DNA of 64,000 nt, from IMG/VR virus record IMGVR_UViG_3300026549_000038, positions 64,001-128,000 of that record. One strand, 5' to 3'. This DNA comes from a virus (taxonomy: Duplodnaviria > Caudoviricetes). The number at the start of each line of letters is the position of its first letter. The stretch's first letter is position 1. The translations under genes were made by a program, and so were the position numbers. Below, in pieces: positions 10,954 through 23,438 of the stretch. The notes beneath the pieces were generated by a model. That model saw only the letters and a list, made by a program, of their open reading frames with translations. It did no database searches and was not told the origin of the DNA.

Positions 10954-11073
10954 TGACCCAGGCGGGGTTCGAACCCACGACCTTTGGTCTTAGTTCAAGG
11001 CTTTACGAGGATTTCTCCGCGGACACTCCCCAACCTTTACTTGCCAACGCTCTACCGACTGAGCTACTGGATC
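10954..11073 (-). ncRNA. tRNA-like RNA with 47-nt structured insertion in the anticodon loop
   Basis: Canonical acceptor GATCCAG/CTGGGTC, D and T arms; 54-nt segment in place of the 7-nt loop. Confidence 0.75.
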
Positions 11074-16251: not shown

Positions 16252-16327
16252 TGCCTCCGGTGGGTCCCGCCCCCACGATCACACATCTTAAAAGGATGGT
16301 GCTTTAATCCAACTCAGCTACAGAGGC
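16252..16327 (-). tRNA. tRNA-Lys(TTT), atypical T loop
   Basis: CT-TTT-AA loop; T loop GGCGGGA. Confidence 0.8.
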
Positions 16328-16952: not shown

Positions 16953-17249
16953 ATCTCTTTACCGCAATGTAAGTGATTTAATATGTAATATGTGATTGTT
17001 TTGATCTGACCTGGTGGATTAAACCACCTACATTTGCGATTAATTAACCTCTGCTATAGGGCTTCTGAGCCAACGCGAGATTATCAAATCTATTATCGTC
17101 AGATCCAATAAATGATAGCCAACTATAGCCGCGATGATCTTTCACCGAGCGTTTACAGATAGATATGTTGACTATTCTCTTCATTTTAGATAGATATTAT
17201 GTTAAAATCAAATTCTAATAAATATAATAAAACAATACAAAAAATTTAG

Positions 17250-17296
17250 TAAATTTTATAAATTTCTAAATAAATTTTATAAATTTCTAAATAAAT
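17250..17296. repeat. 21-bp AT-rich tandem duplication TAAATTTTATAAATTTCTAAA
   Basis: Two copies adjacent to the promoter at 17221-17249. Confidence 0.7.
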
Positions 17297-17307
17297 TCTA
17301 ATAATAT

Positions 17308-17391
17308 TGGTAGCGGGAGGAGGGCTCGAACCTCCGAGGCTTTCGCTGCGGCTTATGGGACCGCCCAGATACCGACTTCTGACATCCCGCT
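17308..17391 (-). tRNA. tRNA-Met(CAT), atypical (C33, extended variable arm), CCA encoded
   Basis: AGCGGGA/TCCCGCT acceptor, GCGGT-CC-CAT-AA-GCCGC. Confidence 0.75.
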
Positions 17392-17393
17392 AG

Positions 17394-17492
17394 TGGTGGG
17401 AGAAGGATTCGAACCCCCAATAGGATTTAACCGAGAATTTACCCACAACCTACTCAATGAAGATTGCCTGTCTGCCATTCCAGCACCCCACC
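17394..17492 (-). ncRNA. Leu-type tRNA body with 11-nt anticodon loop
   Basis: GGTGGGG/TCCCACC acceptor, Leu-type D loop, CAATC-TTCATTGAGTA-GGTTG, long variable arm. Confidence 0.6.
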
Positions 17493-17499
17493 TTAATTG

Positions 17500-17571
17500 T
17501 AGCCCGGGTAAGAATCGAACTTACGCTTCAAAATTTGCAATTTTGCGCTCTGCCAACTGAGCTACCGGGCC
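17500..17571 (-). tRNA. Second tRNA with GCA (Cys) anticodon, A73
   Basis: CAAAA-TT-GCA-AA-TTTTG; canonical D and T arms; lacks the Cys U73 determinant. Confidence 0.75.
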
Positions 17572-17614
17572 TGGATTGATCATTCATATCCATCCTGATC
17601 AACCGAGTACATTC

Positions 17615-17796
17615 GCAAAGATACCTTCAGAGATTTTAGAATAAAGCTGTATACGTATTAGTATAAGACTCCTGCGATTGACCTCTTCGCCACAGCACCA
17701 TGTTTGAATATATTTATATTTAGAGGTGCTGATGGGATTCGAACCCACGAATTAGGAGTTTTTTTTTTGAAGTGTAAATCCTCTCTGGTACTTCGC
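17615..17796 (-). ncRNA. Circularly permuted tRNA mimic on an extended stem (YrlA/Y RNA-like)
   Basis: T arm plus CAGCACC precede GGTGCTG plus D arm; GGAGT/ACTCC and outer GCGAAGTACC/GGTATCTTTGC pairings. Confidence 0.7.
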
Positions 17797-17973
17797 TTGA
17801 CCTTAAATCTAAAGCTCTTGACCCAATTCTAAATCTGATTATCTCGGATTTTTAAAACTAAATCTAAAGCTGAAGCTTTGGTCAATATGTTTTGTCAATA
17901 ATTTCAAAAGAACATAAGCCTTTCACTTATTCGATTACATCCGCTTAAGCGCTGTAACTTCTGCGCTCTGCAA

Positions 17974-18819
17974 CTAACCCCTGTAGAGATAATCTACAAA
18001 CTGGTTTACATCCAGATTCGGTTGTTCGACCTCCGTGTCATTTACAACCTTGAGAGCCTCGATCACTGCTGCAAGCAAGTCAGAGCGTCTGCGAAGCAAC
18101 TCTGCTCTCTCCCTCTGAGTCCACTCACCAGTAAACATCTGCTGAGTATAGTCACCGGTCTCGACTGTCTTGCTTTTGACTGTGGTCTTTGCAGTGTAGT
18201 TTGACGGAAGATGTGACGGATCCAGGTTAGGGTCCTTAAGGATAACCTCCTCCTTCTCTGTCGTACGAGTGACACCCTTGACAAGCTCGGTCTCGAATAC
18301 TCTTCTACCAGCATACTCTGAGTCGGTTGTCTCTTTCCAAACCTCGCTGTCACTACGAACAGGAATGTTTGCAAAGACGGCCTCCAGGTCCTTATTTGTA
18401 AGGATGTTCTTGAGTCTCATAAGCTCCAGAGCGGTAAGGTTTCCGAATGAGTGTCCGTTAACTACAAGCTCGGTGGTTTTTGCTCCCTTGGAGTTCGTTG
18501 ACTCAACACTGAACACGTCTGTAAGCCAGTTCTTGAACTGCTTATTGAACCAGTCAAATTTCTCGTCTACTGTGGTAGCAACTACCTGAGTACCCATCTT
18601 TGAAGGGTCCTCGAAATATCCGTCTCTCGGAACAAATGTTTTCTTGTAACCGCGAAACATCCCCTGCTTATTCTTGAAGAAGCTTGCGTAATCGGCAAAT
18701 AACCTTGCAATACCTGCGCTTGAATGCTCAACCTTGGCGAGCATAGTATTCATCTTAATGTCTCTCATAAAGCTTAAAATATCATTAGTTATGTTAATAT
18801 ATATTAAATGATGATGCAA
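17974..18819 (-). CDS. Conserved helical/beta-hairpin protein (recalled as DUF7873-like; probable start 18768)
   Basis: Pattern G..KTF.P.D, L..L...L.......IP....E.W, T.K, G.....F.G, L...V..A...N, YL.G recalled from a widespread family. Confidence 0.75.
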   Translation of the reverse strand: MHHHLIYINITNDILSFMRDIKMNTMLAKVEHSSAGIARLFADYASFFKNKQGMFRGYKKTFVPRDGYFEDPSKMGTQVVATTVDEKFDWFNKQFKNWLTDVFSVESTNSKGAKTTELVVNGHSFGNLTALELMRLKNILTNKDLEAVFANIPVRSDSEVWKETTDSEYAGRRVFETELVKGVTRTTEKEEVILKDPNLDPSHLPSNYTAKTTVKSKTVETGDYTQQMFTGEWTQRERAELLRRRSDLLAAVIEALKVVNDTEVEQPNLDVNQFVDYLYRG

Positions 18820-18828
18820 AATTTAGTT

Positions 18829-19326
18829 TTATTTAAAAGAATCTCCCAACAATTTCTCACAGGAGGAATATTTCTTCAAATGATCTTGCCAGCCTTCGAT
18901 GTGCCCGTTTTCATCTATATTCATAAGGATATAATCTCCGTATGAATCTCCATAAAGGTCCAAAATAGGAGGAACATAATACTGTTCTATGTCTTCGTCA
19001 AGCGAATGACGTATGATATTGCCGTTTTCGTCTTCAAACCAATAGGTTCCTTCATCACAAACTTTGTAATGAACATCTGCGGTGGTTCCACGAGGCCAAT
19101 TCAAAATCATGCCGGTGTCCATTTCGATCTTCAATGTCCACTTCCACGCTTTTTCTTGTTCGCTATATACAGCCAGCGGCATCCTTGGACTTTTTCCATC
19201 TTCCTGTTCTTCAAAAGATATATCTTCTTCTCCGTTTATGTCTGCATCCTCCCAATATCTAGGCAGGCAGTCGATGCAAAAATATTTAACATCTCTTTCC
19301 TGTGTTGTTTTTGTTTTTAGTTTCAT
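18829..19326 (-). CDS. Hypothetical phage protein (HYKVCDEG...YGDYI family)
   Basis: 165-aa ORF with recurring phage motifs. Confidence 0.75.
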   Translation of the reverse strand: MKLKTKTTQERDVKYFCIDCLPRYWEDADINGEEDISFEEQEDGKSPRMPLAVYSEQEKAWKWTLKIEMDTGMILNWPRGTTADVHYKVCDEGTYWFEDENGNIIRHSLDEDIEQYYVPPILDLYGDSYGDYILMNIDENGHIEGWQDHLKKYSSCEKLLGDSFK

Positions 19327-19335
19327 AACGATAAT

Positions 19336-20589
19336 TTATTTATTTGTTGATATTATATGATACAAATCATACCTAGAATCAATCAAAAGTTTATTCACTG
19401 CATCATAATCTATATGATCTTTCAGTGTAGATGTCTTTTCAAGCATCATGAGCTCTTCTCTTTCCTTATTCACAATAGACATGATTTCATCATACTCATA
19501 CTTGTGATTACGGATATCTAGCAAGAAATCCCTGTCTTTATCTCGAACCACGTTAAATCCCTCACCCCGGAGAAGCTCATTGGACATTCTCAAGAGCCGG
19601 ACACAATGCATCATATTCTTTGAGTCATAATTCTTGTTCAGATTACTCTCATACCTGACCGGATTCCTATGTGCCTCCCACTCCTTGTATTCCTTGTAGT
19701 CTTTGCAGTGAGAAGTATACCCATCTCGGTTGAAGTAAAGATAACAAATCGGTGAATCTCCCTCTTTGACAGCGGAAAGTCTTATGTCATTGGATTTGGT
19801 ATAGTCATCAGGATTCACGATTCCTTCATAACCGTAGAACTCTTTTTCCCAAATACGATTTCGTATCCGGACTGCCTCTTGAGGATCTTTGATAAGCTTG
19901 TTATATGGGTAAGGGATACTTGGATAGGGGTTACATTTTGCCCAATCTGGCAGTGCTTCAAAGTGGAAAAATGCAGCCCAATCATAGTAAACTCCATAGA
20001 CATCTTTCATATTCGGTATGTTCACTAGACCGCAGTACCTTTGGTTTAGGTGGTTGTCTTGCAGGAATTTCTTTATGGGTTGAGATCCCTGATTCTTGAA
20101 GGTATAGCAAAAATCCAGCGGATCTTTTCTCTCACTGACAGGATTAACTATCTTCTTATTCAGCCCCCTGGCTTTATATATTTGACTAATAGCGTACCCA
20201 GAAAAGCTCTTCACACATTCTTTCGAGAGAAAGAGGTCCCTATGAGAGATTATATTCTGAATCACCGGATGTACTTCTCCAACTATACAGTCCTTCGGAA
20301 CGAACAGGCTTTCCAGAACAGAAGGATTTGACTTAAGCAGCAGTTCTATCCATCTCCCGAACTCCCAATAGACAGTGTCGTGCCTGCTGTCTGAGACTTG
20401 TTCTGTGTATGTAGAACGAAGTCCGATAATCTGCTGAACCGGAGCCACGAACACACCACCTATATCTTTATCTGATGTCTCTGTGTTGAGATGGTACATG
20501 TGAGATCCGCGGACATATTCAAAAATAATCAGTTTGTTTTTTCTAAGTCCTTCTATGGTCATAACTATTAATTTATATATTATATTCAA
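19336..20589 (-). CDS. Pol-beta superfamily nucleotidyltransferase (PF10127/RlaP-like)
   Basis: RGSHMYHLNTETSDKDIGGVF, NP..LE.L, GYA..Q, YDSKNMMHCVRL. Confidence 0.88.
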   Translation of the reverse strand: MNIIYKLIVMTIEGLRKNKLIIFEYVRGSHMYHLNTETSDKDIGGVFVAPVQQIIGLRSTYTEQVSDSRHDTVYWEFGRWIELLLKSNPSVLESLFVPKDCIVGEVHPVIQNIISHRDLFLSKECVKSFSGYAISQIYKARGLNKKIVNPVSERKDPLDFCYTFKNQGSQPIKKFLQDNHLNQRYCGLVNIPNMKDVYGVYYDWAAFFHFEALPDWAKCNPYPSIPYPYNKLIKDPQEAVRIRNRIWEKEFYGYEGIVNPDDYTKSNDIRLSAVKEGDSPICYLYFNRDGYTSHCKDYKEYKEWEAHRNPVRYESNLNKNYDSKNMMHCVRLLRMSNELLRGEGFNVVRDKDRDFLLDIRNHKYEYDEIMSIVNKEREELMMLEKTSTLKDHIDYDAVNKLLIDSRYDLYHIISTNK

Positions 20590-22643: not shown

Positions 22644-23438
22644 TTAAACGGTATTAATATTGCGGTTTGTCTTCTTTTCCAGTTCTCTAAAGTCCTTTGT
22701 CTTGACCTTAGTGATAATTCTGCGGCCCATCCTGTCGAGAAGTCCCAGAGGAGCCCTAAGAACAATTCCTTCTGCTTCCAGTGTCGGGTCTTCAGAAACT
22801 GCAGAAGCAAAACCAGCCTTCACTTTTTCGATTGCTTCCTGCAGGGTCATCTCTCCGAGGTAAGGTACAACATCGATACCGAGTTTACCACAGATATCTT
22901 CTACAGCTTCTCTCCTCAGCCAGGTATCTCCAATCTTAATGTCAAAGCAGATAAACTTGAGACGATCCTTGCAATACCTTCCTCCTGCTGCCTGCATCTT
23001 CTTGCCGTATGTCTCTCCGAAGATTATACACTCGCTTTCCGGCAGAACGATGTCTGTTTTTCCTTCTCCGTACTCAGGAGCAGGCCGCTCACAGCTGAAT
23101 GCTTTAATGAGCTTATCCTTGTCTCCGAGAGATTTCAGAAGCTCTACTTCATCCGGTCTCATATTTGCTTTGTCGGTCTTGCCATGTACTTCTACATCGT
23201 AGTATTCAACTTCTGACCACTTGCCAGGCATCACTTCCGTATCTACAGTCTTTGGAATAAGGTGGATGCTTGTGCACTCTCCATCTACCTTCTCTGTTGC
23301 TTCCCACTTAGCATTGAGCTTGTCCAACAGTTCAAACTCCGGAGTAGTCAACTCAGTAGGAATAATACAATTGTAGGTAGGGCTATTTTTATCTAAATCT
23401 CGCTTAAAACACGTGTTAATTTTCGTATACCACTGCAT
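22644..23438 (-). CDS. ATP-dependent RNA ligase-like nucleotidyltransferase (Rnl2-type core)
   Basis: TEKVDG motif I, FGE, FDIK, EGIVLR, TKVK; no OB domain. Confidence 0.82.
   Translation of the reverse strand: MQWYTKINTCFKRDLDKNSPTYNCIIPTELTTPEFELLDKLNAKWEATEKVDGECTSIHLIPKTVDTEVMPGKWSEVEYYDVEVHGKTDKANMRPDEVELLKSLGDKDKLIKAFSCERPAPEYGEGKTDIVLPESECIIFGETYGKKMQAAGGRYCKDRLKFICFDIKIGDTWLRREAVEDICGKLGIDVVPYLGEMTLQEAIEKVKAGFASAVSEDPTLEAEGIVLRAPLGLLDRMGRRIITKVKTKDFRELEKKTNRNINTV

What the first reader, a model, noticed from the sequence alone, without database searches (positions are those of the whole stretch)
17797..18819. Conserved protein followed by a hexamer-repeat RNA leading into the permuted tRNA mimic: candidate ribonucleoprotein system
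Seen: right after the stop codon, ~180 apparently non-coding nt contain phased AGxTTy hexamers: AGCTTC-AGCTTT-AGATTT-AGTTTT, then AGATTT-AGAATT, then AGCTTT-AGATTT. They are bracketed by TTGACC and two alternative GGTCAA partners, and run without a visible terminator into the YrlA-like unit. Recalled, not verified: this protein family (DUF7873-like) occurs in diverse bacteria and phages. Inference: an oligomer binds the periodic AG repeats, as TRAP binds NAG repeats, and is tethered to a tRNA mimic for RNA repair, decay or anti-defence.
Basis: partly seen in the sequence, partly recalled or inferred. Interest (0 to 1): 0.8.

Follow-up and report, generated by a model that had tools for sequence, protein, structure and literature searches.

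The report
Phage tRNA-mimic RNA with DUF7873 partner
A rumen giant-phage gene of unknown function (DUF7873) is followed by a conserved folded RNA, made of a hairpin of six-letter repeats plus a back-to-front tRNA look-alike, that heads the phage's tRNA gene array; it is probably an undescribed relative of the Ro60/Y-RNA particles used in RNA quality control and repair.

Summary
On the minus strand, the 264-aa DUF7873 gene (18768-17974) is followed by phased AGxTTy hexamers. AG..AG at spacing 6 occurs 6 times against 1.3 expected (0 of 2000 shuffles). A covarying TTGACC/GGTCAA helix brackets the hexamers. Next come a long covarying stem enclosing a circularly permuted tRNA-like domain, and then a 25-tRNA array.

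The layout recurs downstream of DUF7873 in about 60 phage loci, down to 28% protein identity. Lak-type megaphages hold gene and RNA about 180 kb apart. DNA-pattern scans for the RNA alone returned almost only contigs that also carry DUF7873.

In several sister clades a divergent Ro60-like (TROVE+vWA) gene lies beside DUF7873. I found none in this record or in three complete relatives.

DUF7873 models at pLDDT 96.6. No similar fold was found, it is not basic, and it is predicted to self-associate. Hexamers also abut its start codon here and in some relatives.

Best reading: a YrlA-type phage Y RNA with an extra hexamer domain and DUF7873 as its dedicated partner. Direct TRAP-like binding is untested.

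This scan has already reported the same DUF7873/tRNA-mimic pair on other genomes. I found no paper or Rfam family that describes it.

The parts
17974..18768 (-). DUF7873 protein gene, 264 aa, ATG to TAG
   Evidence: Translation. Pfam PF25283, E 7.4e-29. 619 near-length homologs. AF2 pLDDT 96.6.
18769..18774 (-). AGCTTT hexamer directly abutting the DUF7873 start codon; a possible autoregulatory site
   Evidence: Sequence. A hexamer motif starts exactly at -6 in 5 of 39 non-redundant DUF7873 starts, against 3% of control ORF starts (p 0.006).
17886..17973 (-). Clade-specific spacer between the stop codon and the conserved RNA. Holds a small hairpin and TTCTTTTGAAAT, shared with L019/L021/L027. 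May hold the RNA's promoter.
   Evidence: Not aligned outside the closest clade. No terminator found by the scan.
17818..17885 (-). 5' hairpin domain. P1 helix TTGACC (17885-17880) with GGTCAA (17823-17818). It encloses hexamer block 1 (17877-17854), the apical AAUCCGAGAU loop region (17853-17837) and hexamer block 2 (17836-17825).
   Evidence: On A4, P1 is 89.6% paired, 4 of 6 pairs change on both sides, and covariation is 0.198 against 0.085 (0 of 500 shuffles). CM R1 scores 92.9 bits, E 7.7e-15, and this is the single strong copy in the genome.
17797..17817 (-). Linker with hexamer block 3 (AGCTTT AGATTT, 17816-17805) and the second GGTCAA (17802-17797)
   Evidence: A-AGCTTTAG directly 3' of P1 is nearly invariant in 29 loci. 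The second GGTCAA recurs only in the window's own clade.
17782..17796 (-). 5' strand of the long closing stem P2 (GCGAAGUAC-CAGAGA)
   Evidence: Pairs with 17633-17615. Strong covariation in the RNAalifold columns 204-213 x 373-385.
17668..17759 (-). Circularly permuted tRNA-like domain, in order: anticodon-stem-like 3' strand ACUCC (17759-17755), T arm (17748-17732), acceptor 3' strand (17731-17725), 24-nt insert, acceptor 5' strand (17699-17693), D arm (17690-17674), GGAGU (17672-17668)
   Evidence: T, acceptor and D stems are canonical in 30 of 30 loci, with many pair types. The anticodon-like stem has 5 or more bp in 30 of 30 loci, with 26 different sequences. Weak tmRNA_permuted hit, 21.5 bits.
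17615..17648 (-). Hexamer block 4 (17648-17631) and the 3' strand of P2 (UCUCUG 17633-17628, GUAUCUUUGC 17624-17615)
   Evidence: AGCWUUAGC-UAAA before the P2 3' strand is conserved across clades. P2 pair counts.
17499..17571 (-). First canonical tRNA (Cys-GCA) of the 25-gene tRNA array headed by the RNA
   Evidence: ARAGORN and Rfam.
18829..19326 (-). 165-aa ORF of unknown function between RlaP and DUF7873
   Evidence: No Pfam or PADLOC family. A 44%-identical copy sits in front of DUF7873 in L113.
19336..20589 (-). RlaP-family nucleotidyltransferase (RNA repair)
   Evidence: PF10127, E 6.8e-18. Also directly upstream of DUF7873 in L023.
22644..23438 (-). RNA ligase
   Evidence: PF09414, E 7e-16.

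Best explanation
The stretch encodes a two-part module: the DUF7873 protein and a structured non-coding RNA of about 270 nt (roughly 17890 to 17615, minus strand) that heads the phage's tRNA array.

The RNA has the plan of a YrlA-type bacterial/phage Y RNA. A tRNA-like domain has its halves in swapped order (T arm, closed acceptor stem, D arm). Its anticodon-side stem opens into an internal loop and is closed by a long bulged helix made from the flanks. In front of that helix sits an extra 5' hairpin. AGCUUU-type hexamers are displayed at four places: both sides of the hairpin, the linker, and the internal loop.

Shown: the RNA's conservation and covarying helices; its one-copy-per-genome co-occurrence with DUF7873; a Ro60-like neighbour in some clades; RNA-repair neighbours here.

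Inferred:
- DUF7873, as a pair or higher oligomer, is the RNA's dedicated protein partner and recognises the hexamer motifs, including one at its own start codon.
- Ro60-like protein, where present, takes the closing stem.
- The 7-bp acceptor stem is probably cut by RNase P and given CCA, as in Mycobacterium smegmatis YrlA.
- The particle serves tRNA surveillance, repair or protection during infection, for instance against host tRNA-cutting defences, alongside RlaP, RNA ligase and RtcB.
For: RNA structure:
- P1 covaries. The pair nearest the hexamers occurs as C-G, U-A, G-C and A-U in different clades.
- P2, T, acceptor and D stems covary.
- The anticodon-like stem is present in 30 of 30 loci with 26 different sequences.
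- G-U pairs occur in P1 and P2, so the fold belongs to this strand as RNA.

Linkage to DUF7873:
- The same layout follows DUF7873 in nearly all non-Lak loci from 82% down to 28% protein identity. The upstream genes are not conserved.
- Two DNA-pattern scans for the RNA alone gave 27 and 29 loci. All lie in contigs that I checked to carry DUF7873, except L107, whose record is not held, and a 61%-complete fragment.
- Model R1 finds one strong copy in each of Lak-A1, Lak-B4, G013, G014, G015 and the window's own genome. In Lak it lies about 180 kb from the gene and is preceded by AT-rich non-coding DNA.

Ro60 link:
- The 600-aa gene directly upstream of DUF7873 in the L005 clade folds to Ro60. 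Foldseek gives 2i91, 1yvr, 9kop, 2nvo and phage phiLo Ro60 9l5y, E 4.5e-7 to 2.5e-5, probability 1.0, about 570-585 aligned columns.
- It lies within 0-6 kb of DUF7873 in five or more clades.

Protein:
- pLDDT 96.6.
- Self-association model: score 0.68, best of 3 controls 0.00. That mark was reached by 20 of 30 proteins solved as pairs of one chain and by 1 of 23 solved as single chains. The runs share at least 71% of contacts and the partner's pLDDT is at least 84. Caveat: my job had three copies and my own alignment, unlike the calibration.

Hexamer at the start codon: enriched, 11 of 39 against 10% of controls, p 0.0015.

Context: RlaP and RNA ligase in the same gene string; RtcB in the genome.

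Expression: contigs from RNA libraries of two studies cover the RNA, although DNA carry-over is not excluded.

YrlA plan and the RNase P/CCA precedent: PMC4201824.
Against: - No binding was tested.
- DUF7873 is not basic: median pI 6.3, net charge about -1, and only two well-conserved Arg.
- Its conserved Glu/Asn/Thr/Arg residues could equally mark an enzyme.
- The window's record (81% complete) has no Ro60-like or TROVE gene. Neither do complete relatives G002, G003, G009 or Lak-A1. Ro60 therefore cannot be an obligate part.
- No Rfam family, YrlA included, matches at E up to 10.
- The GNCGAAN0-1G Ro-site motif is not conserved in the family.
- The AG periodicity is weak in several clades.
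- The fold inside P1 is unresolved. RNAalifold prefers a block 1 with block 3 pairing that crosses P1, and it shows no compensatory changes.
- Adjacency to the tRNA array is as constant as the link to DUF7873, so a cis role for the array is a live rival.
Confidence: 0.55

Rival explanations
1. The hexamer hairpin and the tRNA-like unit are a cis-acting leader of the tRNA array. It could be a processing platform (RNase P, RNase E/III entry), an antitermination element or a transcription-control element. DUF7873 would be either merely syntenic or a regulator of array expression that binds the repeats as DNA or nascent RNA.
For: - The element heads a tRNA array in every locus examined, including Lak phages where DUF7873 is far away.
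- GCUUU fits the RNase E preference RN|WUU (my own knowledge).
- Regulators are often encoded beside their sites, and a hexamer at the gene's own start fits autoregulation.
- Another first-reader note points to boxA-like motifs in front of the RNA units (not tested).
Against: - A plain leader would not need a complete L-shaped tRNA mimic with covarying D, T, acceptor and anticodon-like stems inside a 15-bp closing helix.
- It would also not be expected to keep a one-to-one genome-level co-occurrence with one protein family.
- A Ro60-like neighbour points to a trans-acting Y RNA.
- A six-base spacing puts successive sites on different faces of duplex DNA.
Confidence: 0.25
2. It is a circularly permuted tRNA gene. 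The transcript's ends would be cut and joined by the phage RNA ligase or RtcB, and RNase P/Z would then open the acceptor end, giving a working tRNA as in red-alga permuted tRNA genes.
For: - Complete acceptor (7 bp), D, T and 5-6 bp anticodon-like stems.
- The insert ends in AACAU before G1, and UCUA follows the acceptor 3' strand.
- RNA ligases are present in the genome.
Against: - The bases after the anticodon-like stem show no conserved anticodon-loop pattern. U33 is absent in several clades and there is no purine 37.
- The stem runs into a conserved internal loop and a long helix instead.
- No bulge-helix-bulge splice motif was seen.
Confidence: 0.07
3. It is a two-piece (permuted) tmRNA that tags stalled proteins.
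For: Weak Rfam hits to tmRNA_permuted and cyano_tmRNA over the T arm plus the closed acceptor (21.5 bits against gathering 47, E 0.036).
Against: - The acceptor has U3-A70 rather than G3-U70.
- A true D stem is present.
- ARAGORN calls no tmRNA.
- No conserved tag reading frame. The Ser-Phe frame through the hexamers is closed by a stop in L005 (sequence).
Confidence: 0.02
4. The hexamers are chance low-complexity sequence in an AT-rich spacer.
For: AT-rich intergenic DNA often shows short repeats.
Against: - 0 of 2000 shuffles reach the observed phasing.
- The motif copies are nearly invariant across 29 diverged loci.
- One hexamer unit is lost in phase in L017.
Confidence: 0.01

Closest known systems
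YrlA-type Y RNAs with Ro60/Rsr (Chen et al. 2014, PMC4201824; Rfam RF02553), especially the M. smegmatis form
   Same: - Order T arm, closed acceptor-like stem, D arm.
- T-loop and D-loop tRNA nucleotides.
- RNA ends paired into a long stem.
- A 7-bp acceptor stem like the M. smegmatis RNA, which is cut by RNase P and gets CCA.
- Found in phages.
- Encoded next to a Ro60-like gene in sister clades.
- RNA-repair genes nearby, as in the Salmonella rsr-yrlBA-rtcBA operon.
   Different: - No covariance-model match.
- A retained 5-6 bp anticodon-like stem.
- About twice the size.
- An added 5' hairpin and four sets of AGCUUU hexamers.
- Sits at the head of a tRNA array.
- Its constant companion is DUF7873 rather than Ro60, which is missing from this record and from complete relatives.
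- The Ro60-like protein, where present, belongs to the divergent DUF2828/DUF7788 type.
TRAP (trp RNA-binding attenuation protein) on (G/U)AG repeats; HutP on UAG repeats
   Same: - AG dinucleotides at a regular 5-7 nt spacing in single-stranded RNA.
- A repeat set overlapping a start codon, as TRAP uses at trpG and trpP.
   Different: - DUF7873 is 264 aa, mostly a helical bundle with a beta hairpin, against TRAP's ring of about 75-aa subunits.
- It is modelled as a symmetric pair.
- The repeats come in blocks of 2-6 units rather than 11.
- There is no amino-acid pathway context.
Two-piece (circularly permuted) tmRNA
   Same: Permuted gene order, with T arm and acceptor 3' strand before the acceptor 5' strand, and an intervening segment of variable length.
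   Different: No G3-U70, no tag frame, and a true D arm. Only a sub-threshold Rfam match.
Circularly permuted tRNA genes of Cyanidioschyzon and other algae
   Same: The 3' half is encoded before the 5' half, with an intervening linker.
   Different: No conserved anticodon loop or splice motif. The flanks form a long helix instead.

Membership tests
Pfam DUF7873 (PF25283) | Profile match above the curated cut-off over the full length | tested here: met
   E 7.4e-29, 101.6 bits against 27; residues 5-261 on profile positions 3-241 of 244.
YrlA-type Y RNA | tRNA-like domain in the order T arm, closed acceptor-like stem-loop, D arm, with tRNA-type T and D loops | tested here: met
   Window 17759-17668. 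All three stems are canonical in 30 of 30 loci with many pair types. T loop UUCGAAU; D loop with GG.
YrlA-type Y RNA | 5' and 3' flanks pair into a long stem (the Ro60-binding module) | tested here: met
   P2, 17796-17782 with 17633-17615, with compensatory changes across clades. Whether it binds Ro60 cannot be tested here.
YrlA-type Y RNA | Encoded next to a Ro60/Rsr (TROVE) gene | tested here: not met
   No TROVE or Ro60-like gene in the 160-kb record, which is 81% complete. The feature is met in sister clades, where a Ro60-like gene lies 0-6 kb from DUF7873.
YrlA-type Y RNA | GNCGAAN0-1G motif on the 5' strand of the Ro-binding helix (PMC4201824) | tested here: inconclusive
   The window has AGCGAAG at 17797-17791, one base off the motif. 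It is not conserved in the other clades.
YrlA-type Y RNA | Match to the Rfam covariance model | tested here: not met
   cmscan at E up to 10 lists no Y-RNA family for window 17200-18100 or L016 3780-4120.
TRAP-like repeat-binding oligomer | Small beta-sandwich subunits forming an 11-mer ring; TrpBP Pfam family | tested here: not met
   Pfam at E up to 1 gives only DUF7873. The model is 264 aa with five long helices and a beta hairpin. Fold-search lists cannot exclude a remote relation.
TRAP-like repeat-binding oligomer | Protein binds phased NAG triplets in RNA | not testable with these tools
   Only indirect support: co-occurrence, phasing, and a hexamer at the gene's own start codon.
Two-piece tmRNA | G3-U70 alanine identity pair, tag reading frame, no D stem | tested here: not met
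   Acceptor GGUGCUG/CAGCACC has U3-A70. A D stem of 4 bp is present. ARAGORN makes no tmRNA call. Rfam gives 21.5 bits against 47.
Functional circularly permuted tRNA gene | Conserved 7-nt anticodon loop (U33, purine 37) reconstituted from the two ends | tested here: not met
   The bases after the anticodon-like stem differ freely among clades, and several lack U33.
Ro60/TROVE (the neighbour gene in relatives, L005:1193-2995) | HEAT-repeat ring plus vWA domain fold | tested here: met
   Foldseek top 13 rows are Ro60/Rsr/TROVE entries, E down to 4.5e-7, probability 1.0, about 500-610 aligned columns. Model pLDDT is only 71. Pfam DUF2828 + DUF7788, with a faint vWA_Ro60 hit.

The most novel reading that the evidence does not exclude
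DUF7873 is a new RNA-binding fold. Its pairs or oligomers would read AGCUUU-type hexamers in a six-base register at four sites of a Y-RNA-like scaffold, and at the gene's own start codon as feedback. This would build a Ro60-independent particle that presents a tRNA decoy or handle, and large gut and rumen phages, Lak megaphages included, would use it to protect or repair their own tRNA pool against host tRNA-cutting defences.
Probability: 0.3. Interest if true: 0.85.

Novelty: new variant of a known kind. Interest (0 to 1): 0.7.

Why it matters
Y RNAs and Ro60 are a long-studied but functionally murky RNA-surveillance system. What the tRNA-like module of bacterial Y RNAs binds is still open (PMC4201824).

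This finding gives a large natural family in which the tRNA-mimic RNA keeps one unknown protein as its constant companion, while Ro60 comes and goes. It carries an extra, highly patterned domain that invites a direct binding test.

It sits at the head of the tRNA arrays of giant phages and next to RNA-repair enzymes. That ties it to the arms race over tRNA cleavage.

It also supplies an unannotated, widely conserved RNA gene for Lak megaphages and many rumen and gut phages, and a candidate function for a Pfam family of unknown function.

Tried and rejected
- DUF7873 had no PHROG, PADLOC or PDB-sequence match.
- Fold searches of the DUF7873 model found nothing convincing. Foldseek against PDB and BFVD gave nothing at E <= 1e-3. 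VIA wide gave a best Z of 6.3, helical bundles only.
- A run of weak Cascade/Cas7 rows (TM about 0.1) raised the idea of a Cas7-like six-base reader. I dropped it as noise.
- Coding potential of the hexamers: the Ser-Phe frame is closed by TAA in L005, and the TTG-started frame is not conserved.
- Sigma-70 promoter or terminator in the spacer: nothing above shuffles. I saw no clear Bacteroidota -7/-33 motif by eye.
- P1 as a Ro60 site: the duplex resembles the metazoan GGUC/UUGAC helix, but its connectivity is reversed and it covaries freely. Rejected.
- Apical stem inside P1: different registers in different clades, so no single consensus. Only the AUCCUAGAU loop motif is constant.
- Block 1 with block 3 pairing: no compensatory support, and it crosses P1 with very short linkers. 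Left open.
- Profile-based locus scans failed: viral contigs, alignment A1; bacterial genomes. The single-protein scan found one MAG contig that looks like phage.
- Distant homologs P0211 and P0229 gave no usable flanks.
- In one RNA library (X17) contigs lay only over the RNA and the first tRNA, not over the gene. With contigs this says nothing about relative expression.
- The X3 contig ends at 17733 with adaptor sequence. I read this as an assembly break in the shared T-loop sequence.
- No paper in the library mentions DUF7873.

Full report
**What is there**

The window is bases 64001-128000 of a 160-kb, about 81% complete IMG/VR phage record. Public runs place it in the bovine rumen. Its nearest deposited DNA relatives are the Prevotella Lak megaphages, and they match only inside the gene in question.

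On the minus strand an ORF runs from ATG 18768 to TAG 17974 (264 aa). It is a full-length member of Pfam DUF7873 (E 7.4e-29). Downstream lies a 25-gene tRNA array, 17571 down to 7940. Upstream lie a 165-aa ORF, an RlaP nucleotidyltransferase and an RNA ligase. RtcB is about 22 kb away.

**The observation**

- AG..AG at spacing 6 occurs six times in the 99-nt domain, against 1.27 expected. None of 2000 dinucleotide shuffles reached six.
- Other spacings give 0-2.
- TTGACC (17885-17880) and two GGTCAA copies (17823-17818, 17802-17797) are present.
- The scan found no terminator.
- The first 88 nt after the stop codon are clade-specific spacer and are not part of the conserved unit.

**Comparative evidence**

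Searches gave 619 near-length homologs and 271 representatives at the 50% level. I fetched about 70 loci.

In nearly all non-Lak loci, from 82% down to 28% protein identity, the gene is followed by the same series:
- a bracket helix;
- AGCTTT-type hexamers;
- an apical loop AUCCUAGAU;
- A-AGCUUUAGC again just after the bracket;
- a long-range stem;
- a circularly permuted tRNA-like domain with an insert of 18-245 nt in its acceptor loop;
- a further AGCWUUAGC-UAAA block;
- a tRNA array.

The genes upstream of DUF7873 are not conserved.

**Helices**

- The bracket helix P1 is 89.6% paired. Four of its six pairs change on both sides, and its covariation exceeds all 500 shuffles and all slid controls.
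- Its inner pair occurs as C-G, U-A, G-C and A-U. L069 has a wholly different helix.
- The closing stem P2 and the T, acceptor and D stems covary.
- The anticodon-like stem is kept in 30 of 30 loci with 26 sequences.
- G-U pairs show that the fold belongs to this strand as RNA.

**Is the RNA tied to the protein or only to the spot?**

- Two scans for the RNA's DNA pattern alone returned 27 and 29 loci. All lie in contigs that I checked to carry DUF7873, apart from L107, whose record is not held, and one 61%-complete fragment.
- In Lak-type megaphages the gene ends in a plain terminator with no tRNAs nearby.
- A covariance model of the hairpin still finds one strong copy in Lak-A1 and in Lak-B4, about 180 kb away. 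Each has the tRNA mimic and a tRNA array behind it and AT-rich non-coding DNA in front.
- The window's own genome has exactly one copy.
- In L113 an OmpA-like gene is inserted between the gene and the RNA.

The RNA is therefore its own unit, always at the head of a tRNA array, and it co-occurs with DUF7873 genome by genome.

**Ro60**

In the L005 clade the 600-aa gene directly before DUF7873 carries DUF2828 + DUF7788. It folds (pLDDT 71) to a Ro60/TROVE+vWA protein: the top Foldseek rows are Ro60, Rsr, a TROVE domain and phage phiLo Ro60, with E down to 4.5e-7.

It lies within 0-6 kb of DUF7873 in several clades. It is absent from this record and from complete relatives G002, G003, G009 and Lak-A1.

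Y RNAs of the YrlA type are defined by this very plan and by lying next to Ro60. The M. smegmatis form, which also has a 7-bp acceptor stem, is cut by RNase P and given CCA (PMC4201824). No Rfam model matches.

**The protein**

- AF2 gives pLDDT 96.6.
- It is near-neutral, median pI 6.3.
- A three-copy model passes the self-association mark: 0.68 against a best control of 0.00. The mark was reached by 20 of 30 proteins solved as pairs of one chain and by 1 of 23 solved as single chains. The runs agree in at least 71% of contacts and pLDDT is at least 84. The calibration used two copies.
- In that model the C-terminal helix 242-264 packs on residues 71-119 of the neighbour.

Following a lead from earlier notes of this scan, I found an AGCTTT hexamer directly before the start codon (18774-18769). 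The enrichment in relatives is modest: 11 of 39 against 10% of control starts, p 0.0015; exactly at -6, 5 of 39 against 3%.

**Expression**

Contigs from RNA libraries of two rumen studies cover the RNA. These are contigs, so they cannot show ends, strand or level, and DNA carry-over is possible.

**Reading**

The RNA is best read as a phage Y RNA of the YrlA plan, enlarged by a hexamer-bearing 5' hairpin, with DUF7873 as its constant partner and Ro60-like protein as an optional one. It would work with RlaP, RNA ligase and RtcB on tRNA upkeep during infection.

That DUF7873 binds the hexamers is an inference from co-occurrence, phasing and the start-codon copy. I put it near 0.3-0.35.

The main rival is a cis-acting leader for the tRNA array. 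Permuted tRNA, tmRNA and chance readings fail specific tests.

**Prior record**

The scan's own index holds follow-up reports of the same DUF7873 plus permuted tRNA-mimic pair on other genomes. I found no paper naming DUF7873.

Noticed in passing
L016 4193-4270, L023, L047, L048, L054, L057, L077 (first or second tRNA after the element); window 17974-17976: Many related phages carry an amber-suppressor tRNA (anticodon CUA) right behind the tRNA-mimic RNA. L057's upstream region is almost ORF-free under code 11, which suggests TAG recoding. The window's DUF7873 gene ends in TAG where most homologs use TAA; read-through would add 13 aa up to TAA near 17937. ARAGORN found no CUA tRNA in the window.
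   Followed up: partly
L035 3287-3420: A natural deletion variant. The hairpin breaks off after block 2 and joins sequence that in sister loci lies inside the acceptor-loop insert, at a shared AGCATAAG word. It has lost the P1 3' strand, P2, the T arm and the acceptor 3' strand.
   Followed up: no
Acceptor-loop insert, window 17723-17700; L010, L014, L045: The insert between the two acceptor strands varies from 18 to 245 nt and is structured in some clades. It always begins after UCUA and ends in AACAU before G1.
   Followed up: partly
window 10954-11073, 16252-16327, 17394-17492: Rfam calls three tRNAs that ARAGORN does not. One is 120 nt (possible intron). One is 99 nt with a long extra arm and sits just after tRNA-Cys.
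   Followed up: no
G005 193475-194524 plus 27-809; G008 17523-19319: The Ro60-like gene runs across the ends of contig G005, so that record is circularly permuted. It shows one in-frame TGA (G005) or TAA (G008), which could reflect recoding, a sequencing error or decay.
   Followed up: no
L113 3800-5040: An OmpA-like ORF is inserted between DUF7873 and the RNA in a contig binned as a Bacillota MAG from rumen. The contig looks like phage.
   Followed up: partly
window 17758-17770: The A10 run just before the tRNA-like domain varies in length among rumen samples: +1, +2 or -3 bases in contigs of three runs.
   Followed up: no
W02 (Lak-B4) 226207-226299: A second, weak match of the hairpin model (35.8 bits, E 0.002), 23 kb from the strong copy.
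   Followed up: no
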